Of a stretch of DNA of 64,000 nucleotides, positions 879-16,443 are shown one piece after another. The stretch lies in contig NC_058384.1 of the NCBI RefSeq assembly GCF_018350175.1, forward strand, positions 67,890,001-67,954,000, in the 5' to 3' direction. The notes beneath the pieces are model-generated. The model saw only the letters and a list, made by a program, of their open reading frames with translations. It was not told where the DNA came from and did not search any database. This stretch comes from Felis catus. Taxonomy: Eukaryota. Position 1 is the first letter of the stretch, and each line of letters starts with the position of its first letter. Position numbers and translations under genes: made by a program.

Positions 879-1699
879 CTCTAGTCCAGAGCCTTCTTAC
901 AGTGTTCATGGCAGCTCTTGTCACAAGGCTGCCATTATTCGTTTACAGGTCTTTCTCTCCCATTAGACTGCGGGGTCCCAAAGAACAGGAGCCTTGCGCC
1001 TGGCACACACCGTGGATACTCAGTAAATGCTTGCTGAATGAACGCATGATCCGGAAAGGTGTTCGTGGAAGAGGAAGGGAATTTTCCCCTCTTTCCTTCC
1101 AACCCCTTCATTACCCTTACTCTTCTATTTTAGGGAACCTTTCCTAAACCATTTCTGGCTAACCGATCTACTCTCCATCTAACTACCTTCCATCCCAGCT
1201 CCCCTCTGATATGTCCTGAATTAATATAATTACTCTCAGGTTATTTTTTCTTTTTCCTTTCTATGTCTCAGTTCCTTCCATCATGCCTCTAACTCGGTCC
1301 AGTTTGTCTCAAGGGCTCCTCCTTCCTCTTCTCCACCCCCCCCACCCCTTTTCCAACTCAGTTCATTTACACTTCCACGTATTATGTGTGAGTTCGGAAC
1401 ATACAGTTCTCGAGTGTCTTCCCCTCTTTCAGCACCTGATTCTCCATCCCTCCTTTTCTCAAACCCTTCCTCCACGGCCTTACCTCCTGACCCACAGGTG
1501 CGTACCTTTCGCTCAGGACAAAAGGGGGCCGCCCCTCCTTGCGGCGGCTAGGTAACCGGGCTGTTTTAAGAACTGGATATTTACTGGCCGTGCCGGACAA
1601 TCAGACCTCACCACCACGCCTCAAAAGCGGTGTGGAGGGGCGACACTCGTAAATGACAACTTCCAGGTCCCTTTTAAACCTCCAAACCTCACAAAGTAA

Positions 1700-2480
1700 G
1701 CCGCAGAAGTGTCATGAAGACGGCGCAAGACAGAGGAACGAGCTGAGCAGAAAGGCCGCGCGGCGGGACTGAGCGCGCCCGGCCAACCCCGCGCCCCGCC
1801 GCCGGCGCGCTGGAACCCCCGCGCCCCCGCAGCCCCCGGCGCTCCTATCGCCGCGCCCGCCAGCTACGCGAGGACGCGGCGGCGTGCGCGCCCTGGGGGC
1901 GGGGCCCGGGGCAGCTGGGCGGGGGCGCGGGACGTGCGTACGTGCGTGCGTGCGTGCGCGCTCGCGGTGNNNNNNNNNNNNNNNNNNNNNNNNNNNNNNN
2001 NNNNNNNNNNNNNNNNNNNNNNNNNNNNNNNNNNNNNNNNNNNNNNNNNNNNNNNNNNNNNNNNNNNNNNNNNNNNNNNNNNNNNNNNNNNNNNNNNNNN
2101 NCCGGGAACGAGGCGGGAGGTCCCAGGGTCTCGGGTCGGGGGGGTGGAGCCGCACTTCGTCGCCGCGGGGGTGCCGGGACTCCGGCCGCAGTGCCGCCGC
2201 CATCACGGACTTCCTGTGGGACAAGCGCACGGGCCTCGCCGCCAGAACGGTGAGCGCGCGGGCTGGCGGGCCGCGGGGCCGCGCGGAAAGATGGCGACCG
2301 CGGGGCGGGCGGGGGTAGCCTTGGGCTGGGGGCACGGCGGCGGGGCGAGAGGAGAGGAGGAGGAGGGTAGGGACCTGCAAAGCGGCGGAGGTGAGGGGTA
2401 GGGAGCAGAGGTGGGAGATGAGCGTGCCTTGGACGGACCCGGGCGGACCCGGGAGGACCTCCAGCAAACTTGGGAGGGGC
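1700..2480. promoter_or_regulatory. CpG-island promoter of CLK2
   Basis: Very GC/CpG-rich, with GC boxes and a YY1 motif AAGATGGCG at 2288-2296. Confidence 0.8.
2102..2249 (+). other. CLK2: CLK2 exon 1 (5' leader), visible part
   Basis: Ends AGAACG|GTGAGC (donor 2250-2251) and would splice directly onto the ATG at 3848. Lies in a CpG island; its 5' part is in N-run 1970-2101. Confidence 0.8.
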
Positions 2481-3847
2481 CCGAGTAGGGGAAGGGGTGA
2501 TGGAGCAGGGAGGGGAGCGGTTCCCGAGAGGAGAAAGAGCAGAATATCAAAGTTGGAGCGGGGCTGGAGATGAGGAGGACCCGCCGTGTCACTGGGAGGG
2601 CATGGAAGGAGTTTGACTCCAAGAGTTCGTTCTGGATTTTCTGAGCGAGAAAGGAGGGGGAAAGGTTTATAAGTTGGGAAAGGTAAACTGCAGGTGCTTC
2701 TGGTGGGGAGGGGCGTGAGAAACTTTGGTGGCCGTGTGCCCTGTGCGGAGAGGATGTTTGTGTGGCTGTGCTGAACAAGCTTGGGTTACCCTGTGGCGGG
2801 GGGTGAAATCTGCAGCTCGCGTCTTTGCCACGGGCCTTCTAGACCGGGACCGAGTCCGATATCACCCTCCTCGATTTGAGGAGGTTGGGAAGTAGAAAGC
2901 TCAGAATGAGAGCCAGATGTTGGAATCATTAAGCCTTTCCACACCTAACCCCCCCCCCCCCCCGCCCCCAAGACTTCAGTCCCTGGGCCTGTTGAATTTT
3001 ATTTTGCTGTCATATTTTTATCTTTCTGGATTGTGACAGTGATTTCTCTCTTGATTTCTTTCCTTTAAGGAAGAAAAGCGTTTGTGCACCATGCCATTCC
3101 GATTCCAATAACTAACTGGAAGGAGGCCAGCTTTTAGCCAAGCAGTGCTGATACTAATTAAAAACCAGTTATTCTCTATTTCCTAAGCAGGAGGGGAGGG
3201 GCAAGTGGAAATCAGACTGCAGCTTGGGGCCTTCTGTATTAAAAACTTTTGAGGGGAGTTTGGCCCGTGGTGATAGCCAGTGAGAGTTGACTAAGGCAGT
3301 TCAAGAGGTCAGACCCAAGTCCCTGGAGCCTGCCTATATTTGGTGTATGCCACCGCATGTAGAAACCAGGTATGCTGGATTGCTGCCCACAGGACACAGA
3401 ATGGTCTAGTTGGGGAGGTAGAGATACACTCTTCATTGTAAAACGTGTATTGTGATAGCATATGCTAAAATGTTACCCTGGTGGGTTGTGAGGAACTCGC
3501 ATGGAGTCGATGCAGCTTAGACTCCGGCCAGGGGTGAACCGTGGCAGTGTGCATCAATTACACAGTCTCACCCGGAATGAGCTGTGGCCCCGACCCGAAG
3601 ACTTCACGGAGCCAAGTTTGAGGAAAGTCCATAGAGCAATGAGAGGAAAGGGCTGGGGGCGCGGGGCAGGCTCCTAGAGTTTTCTAGTGGAGTTGTTAAG
3701 TGATACGTAAGGAAGTTGTAGGAGGTGAAAAGAGGTGGGAGTGGCAGCAGAAAGCAGCTTCGCGCCCCTGGGGCAGCCAGTGCTTGGAGGGGAGCTCCGA
3801 AAACTCCGAGCCTGTCTCCACTATTCCTCTTTCTCCTTTTCTTCCAG

Positions 3848-6800
3848 ATGCCTCATCCCCGAAGGTACCATTCCTCAGAGCGAGGCAGCCGGGGGAGTTA
3901 CCACGAACACTATCGGAGCCGGAAGCATAAGAGACGAAGAAGCCGCTCCTGGTCAAGTAGCAGTGACCGGACCCGGCGGCGCCGGCGGGAAGACAGCTAC
4001 CACGTCCGTTCCCGGAGGTGAGGCTTCAGGGGGAAAAACCCCTCCTCGGGGTCGCTCACTCATTTATTTACTCAGCAGAGATTTATTGGTTAGATGCTGA
4101 GCGGTTGGGGTAAGGGGCCACTCAGGACTGTTACCAGAATGAGCCATTTGCACTGTGGTGTTAAGAGTGCTATCATAGAGGAAGGGCGTGGTAAGGGGCT
4201 GAGGAAGCATCTAGCAGTTTGGTTGGATTGGGGCAGGATGTGTAATTCAAGAACCAGGGTGAAGTGTCTCGGGCGAAGGGAGAGGAAGTGTAGAAGAGTA
4301 GGGTCTAGAGATAGCTAATGACATAACAGACAAGACAAAGTGAGGTCTGCGTGTTCAGCGTGGGAGGGGTGGGTTAAGGATAGTTTGGAGCAAAATTGGG
4401 TGTCAGTCAGGAACGACTCAGGAAAGAAATGGCTCTTTGTTCCATCTGTTATGTCACTAGTGGCAGGCGGGGGGCGGGGGAGGCCCCCAGAGGGAGCGGT
4501 TCTGCCTGTGTCCCTTCGGGGGTCTTGGTGGCATGCAGGTGTGGGGATCCTCGTCTGCTCTTAATGATTTCACTCCTCTGGTCCTTGGTCCTCAGAATGA
4601 CCCCATGAGTGTCTGAGAGCAGTTCTTCCAGCATCGTTCTTTGTCCTTGTTGAGGGAGGACCTCGTCCTGTCGTGGGGCAAGGAGTGTGGCCTGAACAGA
4701 TGCACCTAATGGGTGTCTGTTGTCCAACAGCAGCTACGATGACCGTTCATCGGACCGGCGGGTGTACGACCGGCGATACTGTGGCAGCTATAGGCGCAAC
4801 GATTACAGCCGGGACCGGGGAGAAGCGTGCTACGACCCGGACTACCGGCACTCCTATGAGTACCGTCGGGAGGACAGCAGTTACCGCAGCCAGCGCAGCA
4901 GCCGGAGGAAGCACAGGCGGCGGAGGCGGCGCAGCCGGACGTTCAGCCGCTCGTCTTCGGTGAGTGCTCGCCCAGGCCCTTCCTCTCCCCACTCCTCTCC
5001 GGCCCTCTAGGACCCTGGTAAGTGAGAAGTACCCTTGTTTTTAGCTGAGCACTGGGGCAGGAACACTGAGGTGGGCACTGAGTCTCTGCTCTCTCGGAAG
5101 CTCTCCAGCTCTCGGAGGGCCCTGGAATCTGCTTTGGAGGTGGACGGGCACGGAGCATTTGTACCCCGGTGCCTTCCTCGGCATGCTGGGCCTGTTGTGT
5201 TGGGGACAGCTCCTCTGTCCCAGACGCCTCCACTCTGTAGTGGAGACCTTGCCTGTGAATTGCCTTTCTCCCCCAAGCTCTGGGCTCCACGGCCCCTCAG
5301 TAGGTGGGCTCGGGTGGGGGCAAAGGGAGATCGGTGCCTGCCTGGAAGGGCATTGTGTAGAGCATGGGGTTGCGGGTGACATTGGCAACGACACCACTTC
5401 TCTGCTCTGCCCGTTCCNNNNNNNNNNNNNNNNNNNNNNNNNNNNNNNNNNNNNNNNNNNNNNNNNNNNNNNNNNNNNNNNNNNNNNNNNNNNNNNNNNN
5501 NNNNNNNNNNNNNNNNNNNNNNNNNNNNNNNNNNNNNNNNNNNNNNNNNNNNNNNNNNNNNNNNNNNNNNNNNNNNNNNNNNNNNNNNNNNNNNNNNNNN
5601 NNNNNNNNNNNNNNNNNNNNNNNNNNNNNNNNNNNNNNNNNNNNNNNNNNNNNNNNNNNNNNNNNNNNNNNNNNNNNNNNNNNNNNNNNNNNNNNNNNNN
5701 NNNNNNNNNNNNNNNNNNNNNNNNNNNNNNNNNNNNNNNNNNNNNNNNNNNNNNNNNNNNNNNNNNNNNNNNNNNNNNNNNNNNNNNNNNNNNNNNNNNN
5801 NNNNNCAAGTCACAGCCTCTTGCCTTTCCTCAGTGGTGTTGTTTATCTGGGTGGTTTGAGTTGCTGTTGAGAATTGACCTCTGCTGTCCACTCCCAGCTC
5901 TCATGGCCCCTGGGTTAAAGGTGGTGGGAATCACACAGGGGTGTTCTTCCCCTGTGACCATCTGTATCTGTTCCCCCTTCCTTCATCTCACCCCAGGTTG
6001 CCGTACCCTTTTTTCTTCCAACTCAGCTCATTCCCCACCTTCTCTCCCTCCCTCTCCCCGACCCTGCTCTGTTTCATTTCAGATGAAATTGTCAGCACGT
6101 TGGGAGAGGGGACCTTCGGCCGGGTTGTCCAGTGTGTCGACCATCGCAGGTAACTATAGCCCCTCCCTGCTCCGTACTCCTAGGCGTGGCGAGGTGCTGA
6201 GGGTCAGTCTGGGGGTGTTTTTGCTGATTGGCCAAAGGTAGGATTTCTTAATCCCCGGACAGCCCCGTTCATTTTGAGATGTTCTTGACGACCCAGCAAA
6301 AACCTCTTCTGGCCACCACAGGGGTGGGGCTCGAGTCGCCCTGAAGATCATTAAGAACGTGGAAAAGTATAAGGAAGCAGCTCGACTTGAAATCAACGTC
6401 CTGGAGAAGATCAACGAGAAGGACCCTGACAATAAGAAGTAAGCAGCAGAGGGGTGTGTGGGGGTCTGGGAGGCTCCGCTCCTGTACAGGAGAACCCAAA
6501 CCCTCCCGGCCTGGGTTAGGCAGGCAGGGGAGTCCTGGGCCTTCTCATCCATTCATCTTTTCGTCATCATCTTAGACTAGCAGGACATTAGGGCAGGAAG
6601 AGAGGGTGTGTGACATTGTCTAGTCTGTTCCCCTTGTTGTCAGGGCACTTAGATTGCTCTGCACTTTGGCTCCAGCCAGGGTGGCCTCTGTAGAGCTCTG
6701 CCCTGGAAATGGCCCTGAGACTGAGAATCAACATTTTCCGTGAAAAGTCACTTGAGCTTTTTGATATCTAGAACCGTGTTGCCGAGGCGACAGACATTTA

Positions 6801-11422: not shown

Positions 11423-16443
<5,021 letters not shown>

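What the first reader, a model, noticed from the sequence alone, without database searches (positions are those of the whole stretch)
2193..2249. Candidate non-AUG N-terminal extension of CLK2 in near-perfect Kozak context
Seen: GCCGCCGCC-ATC-ACG-G. The ATC at 2202-2204 is exactly 48 nt before the exon 1 donor, so it is in frame with the ATG at 3848 and encodes ITDFLWDKRTGLAART-MPHPRR. ATC has the textbook GCCGCC(G)CC upstream context, and the next codon ACG has A at -3 and G at +4. The frame is also open further upstream to the N-run. The annotated ATG is the first base of exon 2 and has C at +4. Inference: CLK2 may have a 15-16-aa longer proteoform whose abundance depends on start-codon stringency. 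It may already be in ribosome-profiling catalogues; I could not check.
Basis: partly seen in the sequence, partly recalled or inferred. Interest (0 to 1): 0.7.

Follow-up and report, generated by a model that had tools for sequence, protein, structure and literature searches.

The report
CLK2's known ACG-started longer form
The gene for the splicing kinase CLK2 has an in-frame ACG codon 45 bases before its annotated start; published human data already show protein starting there with 15 extra amino acids, and this mammal likely does the same, since the extra peptide is almost unchanged in birds and lizards.

Summary
Human N-terminomics found Ac-MDFLWDKR and Ac-TDFLWDKR in CLK2 (Na 2018). TISCA placed the start at ACG (Ichihara 2021). 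Furukawa 2026 lists this ACG context as conserved in human, mouse and rat. Fedorova 2022 lists it under ATC, with negative PhyloCSF. The main start is ACG 2205 (15 residues), not ATC 2202. Two points were not found in my paper searches. (1) Residues 1-13 are identical in 6 of 6 bird and lizard species. Identity falls to 0-2 of 6 from four codons upstream, and Ile becomes Lys in lizards, so conservation starts at the ACG codon. (2) The Thr-starting peptide, published as 'ACG decoded as Thr', is more simply ATC initiation followed by Met removal, as was shown by mutation for the GUG-ACG pair of FMR1. ATC is then likely a minor start. The annotated ATG has A at -3 after splicing, and all four CLK genes have ATG at the first exon base. 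Translation in this species and the peptide's function are untested. The scan held no earlier CLK2 note. Already known; interest 0.27.

The parts
2196..2204 (+). GCCGCC-A-TC: positions -9 to -1 of the ACG, a full NAT1-type enhancer context
   Evidence: sequence; motif definition GCCGCC(A/G)NNXXXG; the same 15-mer context is listed for human CLK2
2202..2204 (+). ATC, in frame; likely minor start (Met, removed, leaving Ac-Thr); supplies A at -3 for the ACG
   Evidence: sequence; Trips-Viz call in human; Lys in 3 of 3 lizard species; minor-start role inferred from the FMR1 precedent
2205..2207 (+). ACG, main non-AUG start (A-3, G+4, A+5)
   Evidence: human Ac-MDFLWDKR, codon ACG, -45; TISCA; conservation boundary
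2205..2249 (+). 15-codon N-terminal extension (M/T)DFLWDKRTGLAART at the 3' end of the leader exon
   Evidence: translation; residues 1-13 identical in 6 of 6 bird and lizard species
2238..2249 (+). second GCCGCC-AGA-ACG unit directly before the junction (A at +4 after splicing); role unknown, not kept in lizards
2250..3847 (+). phase-0 intron, GT..AG
   Evidence: sequence; junction crossed by database translations
3848..4017 (+). next exon, beginning with the annotated ATG; CLK2 residues 1-56
   Evidence: tblastn 98-100% to CLK2 proteins P0012 and P0111; single copy in the genome

Best explanation
The CLK2 leader exon ends in an open, in-frame 45-base stretch that begins with ACG in a full GCCGCC-A-NN-ACG-G context, and scanning ribosomes likely start there with Met in this mammal, as published for human, giving a kinase 15 residues longer than annotated. 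Shown here: sequence, frame, context, and protein-level conservation across amniotes starting at the Thr/ACG position. Shown in print for human: Met at the ACG, N-acetylated, and the commoner of the two upstream N-termini. Inferred: a smaller share starts one codon earlier at ATC and loses its Met (giving Ac-Thr); ribosomes that pass both start at the AUG of the next exon; the long:short ratio moves with eIF1/5MP/eIF5 stringency; and the conserved DFLWD-containing peptide acts as a short interaction or stability motif that tunes CLK2, its partner unknown.
For: Ac-(M/T)DFLWDKR, gene CLK2, codon ACG, -1 codon AUC, distance -45. TISCA finds the ACG and not the annotated AUG; many Met peptides, one Thr peptide. 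Listed as NAT1-motif ACG site, footprints in human, mouse, rat. 38 of 146 proteins held carry the peptide: 14 mammal-like and 11 bird records letter for letter, 8 lizard records with K at -1 and changes in the last one or two residues, 5 primate 'CLK2-like' records with Met for Thr. One record each of 3 bird and 3 lizard species: positions +1 to +13 identical in 6 of 6, positions -4 to -15 in 0-2 of 6 (ungapped), codon -2 Ala in 6 of 6, codon -3 Ala in 5 of 6, codon -1 Ile or Lys, both starting with A. Birds: extension 15 of 15 against 47 of 56 for the next exon. 3 of 14 mammal-like records change frame about 8 codons upstream of the Thr, 0 of 14 inside the extension. Full motif in frame in 4 of 5000 shuffles.
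Against: No RNA, Ribo-seq or peptide data for this species. PhyloCSF over 29 upstream codons is -39.7 in 120 mammals (about half of these codons lie upstream of the ACG, my reading). Trips-Viz assigned ATC, not ACG. Conservation was seen in proteins only: that the Thr codon is ACG in birds and lizards, and any synonymous bias, were not seen. Records were found by likeness to the peptide, so broken versions would be missed; several are isoforms of one species, and 13 of the 14 mammal-like records are unnamed contigs that may hold errors. Amphibian, fish, turtle, marsupial and monotreme records did not show the region. No unusual downstream hairpin (z -0.78 to +1.15 in 6 of 6 windows). CLK2 is not among the 13 rows of the Fedorova table that appears to list exclusive non-AUG starts.
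Confidence: 0.88

Rival explanations
1. ATC 2202 is the main start (16-codon extension), as the first reader put first.
For: Perfect GCCGCCGCC upstream; Trips-Viz names ATC; Ac-TDFLWDKR fits ATC initiation with Met removal.
Against: Met peptides from ACG outnumber the single Thr peptide; ATC lacks G+4, TIS score 3.6; codon is Lys in 3 of 3 lizard species.
Confidence: 0.05
2. The stretch is conserved as a DNA or RNA element (promoter-proximal factor site, splice enhancer); translation from ACG happens but the peptide is incidental.
For: Lies in a CpG-rich first exon next to the donor; PhyloCSF negative; such leaders are rich in GC-type factor sites; no nucleotide alignment was available to show synonymous change.
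Against: 13 residues including F, L, W invariant from mammals to lizards, with the boundary at the start codon; frame changes seen only upstream; CCGCCATCAC does not fit the YY1 core CCGCCATNTT (recalled motif), and CCAT is lost where Ile becomes Lys.
Confidence: 0.1
3. The ACG form is essentially the only CLK2 N-terminus and the annotated AUG is an internal Met (EIF4G2-like exclusive non-AUG start). This is a stronger version of the best explanation, not an alternative to the ACG start.
For: Annotated AUG not found by TISCA or proteomics; no CLK2 or MPHPR entry among 5,664 rows of Na Table S1; ACG in the full motif averages 104% of the AUG control by regression.
Against: The short form begins MPHPR-R: Met removal before Pro, no acetylation and a 4-residue tryptic peptide make it invisible to these proteomics (established N-terminal processing rules, recalled). 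The AUG has A-3 and score 69 and is positionally shared by all four paralogues. Not in the Fedorova 13-row table.
Confidence: 0.25
4. ACG is at times decoded by Thr-tRNA at initiation (Na 2018; Ichihara 2021), which accounts for Ac-TDFLWDKR without any ATC start.
For: Published reading.
Against: The -1 codon is AUC, a near-cognate in a GCCGCCGCC context; the Na substitution database held ACG, CUG, GUG, UUG and four controls but not AUC; in FMR1 the matching Ac-Thr peptide was almost lost when the preceding GUG was mutated.
Confidence: 0.2

Closest known systems
Human CLK2 ACG-initiated extension: Na et al. 2018, PMC5749180 (sections 4 and 5, passages, Suppl. Table S3 rows); Ichihara et al. 2021, PMC8287933 (abstract, passages; supplement unreadable); Furukawa et al. 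2026, PMC13754004 (abstract, sections 6, 7, 9, Table S3 row); Fedorova et al. 2022, PMC9789052 (passages, section 10, supplement rows)
   Same: Same gene, same context GCCGCCAUCACGGAC, same -45 distance, same peptide.
   Different: Another mammal, with no translation data. Conservation is stated in the passages read for human, mouse and rat only; here it reaches birds and lizards. The Thr-starting peptide is read here as an ATC start.
FMR1 FMRpolyG tandem GUG-ACG starts (bioRxiv 10.1101/2020.10.19.345736, section 8 read)
   Same: A near-cognate codon directly before an ACG; Ac-Met major and Ac-Thr minor peptides (16-18% there).
   Different: There the origin of Ac-Thr was tested by mutation; FMRpolyG is a repeat-associated product, not an extension of the annotated protein.
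EIF4G2/NAT1 GUG start (motif as defined in PMC13754004; named as exclusive non-AUG in PMC9789052 section 10)
   Same: GCCGCC-R-NN-codon-G context.
   Different: CLK2 keeps an in-frame AUG 15 codons downstream with A at -3, so two forms are expected.

Membership tests
NAT1-motif near-cognate start (PMC13754004) | GCCGCC(A/G)NN at -9 to -1 | tested here: met
   GCCGCCATC before ACG; GCCGCCGCC before ATC
NAT1-motif near-cognate start (PMC13754004) | near-cognate codon with G at +4, and not G at +5 | tested here: met
   ACG-G-A meets it; the ATC (A at +4) does not
NAT1-motif near-cognate start (PMC13754004) | measurable ribosome footprints from the site | not testable with these tools
   published for human, mouse, rat; none for this species
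Non-AUG N-terminally extended proteoform | in frame with the CDS, no stop, no upstream in-frame AUG | tested here: met
   for 2102-2249; the N-run upstream was not examined
Non-AUG N-terminally extended proteoform | coding-type conservation beginning at the start codon | tested here: met
   protein level, 6 of 6 bird and lizard species over 13 residues; codon-level test not possible; published PhyloCSF negative
Non-AUG N-terminally extended proteoform | N-terminal peptide seen by mass spectrometry | not testable with these tools
   published for human
Non-AUG N-terminally extended proteoform | long and short forms differ in function | not testable with these tools
   only an AlphaFold 3 hypothesis in print
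Exclusive non-AUG initiation (EIF4G2 type) | downstream AUG not used | tested here: inconclusive
   TISCA missed the AUG, but it has A-3 and its peptide is not detectable by trypsin-based N-terminomics; absent from the table
CLK-family-wide leader extension | similar peptide or full motif in CLK1, CLK3, CLK4 leaders | tested here: not met
   no DFLWD-like peptide on the sense strand of 3 of 3 paralogue leader regions; only CLK4 has a GCCGCC-ATT-TTG-T site, without G+4 (donors predicted, not shown)
YY1 site | CCGCCATNTT core (recalled) | tested here: not met
   no match at the finding; the only YY1-like hit in 1501-3000 is AAGATGGC at 2288 in the intron

The most novel reading that the evidence does not exclude
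The 15-residue extension is the principal N-terminus of CLK2 throughout amniotes, a motif more conserved than the annotated start of the protein and missing from standard annotation, so that start-codon stringency sets the form of a splicing kinase; and the published exception 'ACG decoded as Thr at initiation' is in fact initiation at the adjacent ATC with Met removal.
Probability: 0.4. Interest if true: 0.5.

Novelty: already known. Interest (0 to 1): 0.27.

Why it matters
Work on CLK2 built on the AUG form may lack a conserved N-terminal motif carried by much of the native kinase, and the site would link initiation fidelity to SR-protein phosphorylation. That idea is already in print (PMC13754004). 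What is added here is modest but testable: the bird and lizard conservation argues that the peptide itself is selected despite a negative PhyloCSF score, and one codon change would settle whether a cited exception to Met-only initiation is real.

Tried and rejected
Complex prediction of the extension plus 17 following residues against the kinase domain: score 0.00, verdict 'no answer', alignments not used; not evidence either way. Downstream hairpin: nothing above shuffles in 6 of 6 windows. Retrocopies in the own genome that would show the junction: none, one match each for leader and exon. Pfam on the 30 leader codons: 0 families. Deeper homologues: 33 hits in the representative search added two mammal-like records and no amphibian or fish extension; these models start at the annotated Met or lack the region, so this is no evidence of absence. 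The 5 primate 'CLK2-like' records with Met for Thr were rejected as evidence of an AUG-started orthologue: they are diverged or deleted, probably retrocopies, and ACG to ATG is the ordinary CpG transition (inference). 'ATG at exon base 1' rejected as a special sign. Na Fig. S4 text gave no CLK2 match (file cut when stored), so I cannot say how far that figure traced conservation. Unseen supplements that may bear on the claims: Ichihara Fig. S5, Na Tables 1-2 (no text), Fedorova MOESM5, 9 and 13, all figures, bioRxiv supplements. No RNA reads were laid, so the transcription start and junction in this species stay open. Earlier scan notes: none on CLK2.

Full report
Observation. The sequence is as described: GCCGCCGCC-ATC-ACG-G from 2193, donor after 2249, acceptor ending 3847, ATG 3848, and a spliced frame ITDFLWDKRTGLAART-MPHPRR open back to the N-run. 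The downstream exons match CLK2, followed by SCAMP3; some coding exons gave no match, and the window holds several N-runs in that region. Leader and first coding exon are single-copy in the genome. A near-cognate codon with R-3 and G+4, in frame and open, is commonplace in this GC-rich leader (3068 of 5000 shuffles); the full GCCGCC-R-NN-codon-G form is not (4 of 5000). Only the ACG has that form; the ATC has A at +4. After splicing the annotated ATG has A at -3.

Literature. Na et al. 2018 (PMC5749180; sections 4 and 5, passages and supplement rows read) found Ac-MDFLWDKR and Ac-TDFLWDKR. Their Table S3 gives gene CLK2, codon ACG, preceding codon AUC, distance -45. Ichihara et al. 2021 (PMC8287933; abstract and passages) detected the ACG by TISCA, saw many Met peptides and one Thr peptide, and did not detect the annotated AUG. 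Fedorova et al. 2022 (PMC9789052; passages, section 10, supplement rows) list CLK2 among ribosome-profiling extensions under ATC, PhyloCSF -39.7 over 29 codons, TIS score 3.6 against 69 for the AUG. Furukawa et al. 2026 (PMC13754004; abstract, sections 6, 7, 9, Table S3 row) list GCCGCCAUCACGGAC as a NAT1-motif site conserved in human, mouse and rat, and propose from AlphaFold 3 that the peptide competes at the kinase domain. The finding is therefore known.

Conservation, tested here. Three homologue searches (49 of 116, 33 of 45 and 16 of 16 candidates), a cluster look-up and a representative search (33 hits) gave 146 proteins; 38 show the peptide because their gene models begin further upstream. 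The other 108 start at the annotated Met, read through introns, carry other upstream exons or are other proteins, and say nothing on the question. Of the 38, 14 mammal-like and 11 bird records are letter for letter, 8 lizard records have Lys for Ile and changes in the last one or two residues, and 5 primate 'CLK2-like' records have Met for Thr. With one record for each of 3 bird and 3 lizard species, positions +1 to +13 are identical in 6 of 6, -1 in 3 of 6, -2 in 6 of 6, -3 in 5 of 6, and -4 to -15 in 0-2 of 6. Ala-Ala-(Ile/Lys)-Thr-Asp is what GCC-GCC-ANN-ACG-G would encode, so the context seems kept while the ATC is not (inference; only proteins were seen). In birds the extension is 15 of 15 identical against 47 of 56 for the next exon. 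Three of 14 mammal-like records change frame about eight codons upstream and none inside. Limits: ascertainment by likeness, repeated isoforms, unnamed contigs, no codon-level test, nothing for amphibians or fish. Searches listed no paper stating conservation outside mammals, but Na Fig. S4 could not be read for CLK2.

Which codon. ACG is the main start by peptide counts, context and conservation. The Thr-starting peptide was published as Thr decoding of an ACG start. The codon before it is AUC, which the Na substitution database did not include. Met removal before Thr is common, and for the GUG-ACG pair of FMR1, mutating the GUG nearly abolished the matching Ac-Thr peptide (bioRxiv 10.1101/2020.10.19.345736, section 8). 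I infer that ATC is a real minor start, at about 0.75-0.8. That paper cites CLK2 as the Thr-decoding precedent without reinterpreting it; searches listed no paper that does, and the review PMC9082881 does not name CLK (passage search).

The annotated AUG. Its absence from proteomics is weak evidence, as MPHPR-R would give an unacetylated four-residue peptide (recalled processing rules). All three paralogues in this genome also have AG|ATG at the first base of their first coding exon (the names CLK1, CLK3 and CLK4 are recalled from their N-termini), and none shows a like peptide upstream. The extension therefore looks CLK2-specific, and a mixture of long and short forms is more likely than exclusive ACG use.

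Mechanism. Leaky scanning over ATC, then ACG, then AUG; the ratio is likely set by eIF1/5MP/eIF5 (proposed in print; no CLK2-specific test in the passages read). No special downstream hairpin. The peptide likely acts as a short interaction or stability motif, given invariant F, L and W; its partner is unknown. The published out-of-frame peptides are less secure, since upstream frame changes in 3 of 14 records would alter products of the GTGs at 2144 and 2171 (that these GTGs are the published O and Q starts is my assumption).

Verdict. Real, already known, interest 0.27. The amniote conservation and the ATC reading of the Thr peptide are the additions.

Noticed in passing
window 2238-2249: A second GCCGCC-AGA-ACG unit sits directly before the junction, giving ACG|ATG after splicing; the last two codons differ in lizards.
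   Followed up: partly
G000:C1, joined L007+L006 position 4687 (CLK4-like leader): GCCGCC-ATT-TTG lies in frame and open 87-90 nt before the best predicted donor. It fits a YY1 core (recalled) but could be a near-cognate start; CLK4 appears in the Fedorova RiboSET_ext gene lists and not in the Furukawa supplements.
   Followed up: partly
G000:C15, C17, C1 (L003-L007): All three CLK paralogues, like CLK2, have ATG as the first bases of the first coding exon.
   Followed up: yes
P0049, P0072, P0074, P0076, P0018: Primate 'CLK2-like' records, probably retrocopies, have Met at the Thr/ACG position, so a CpG transition turned the near-cognate start into ATG.
   Followed up: partly
window 2288-2295: AAGATGGC, a YY1-like site (recalled motif), 38 nt into the intron.
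   Followed up: no
window 2144, 2171, 2191: Out-of-frame GTGs: two open 62 and 53 codons to a stop in the next exon, one stays open through it.
   Followed up: partly
window 11429-16440: SCAMP3 follows CLK2 closely on the same strand; several database models fuse the two (763-764 aa records).
   Followed up: no
P0052, P0096, P0098: Some Pogona models insert 8 residues between the extension and the annotated Met, apparently from a later donor; P0097 has the direct junction.
   Followed up: no
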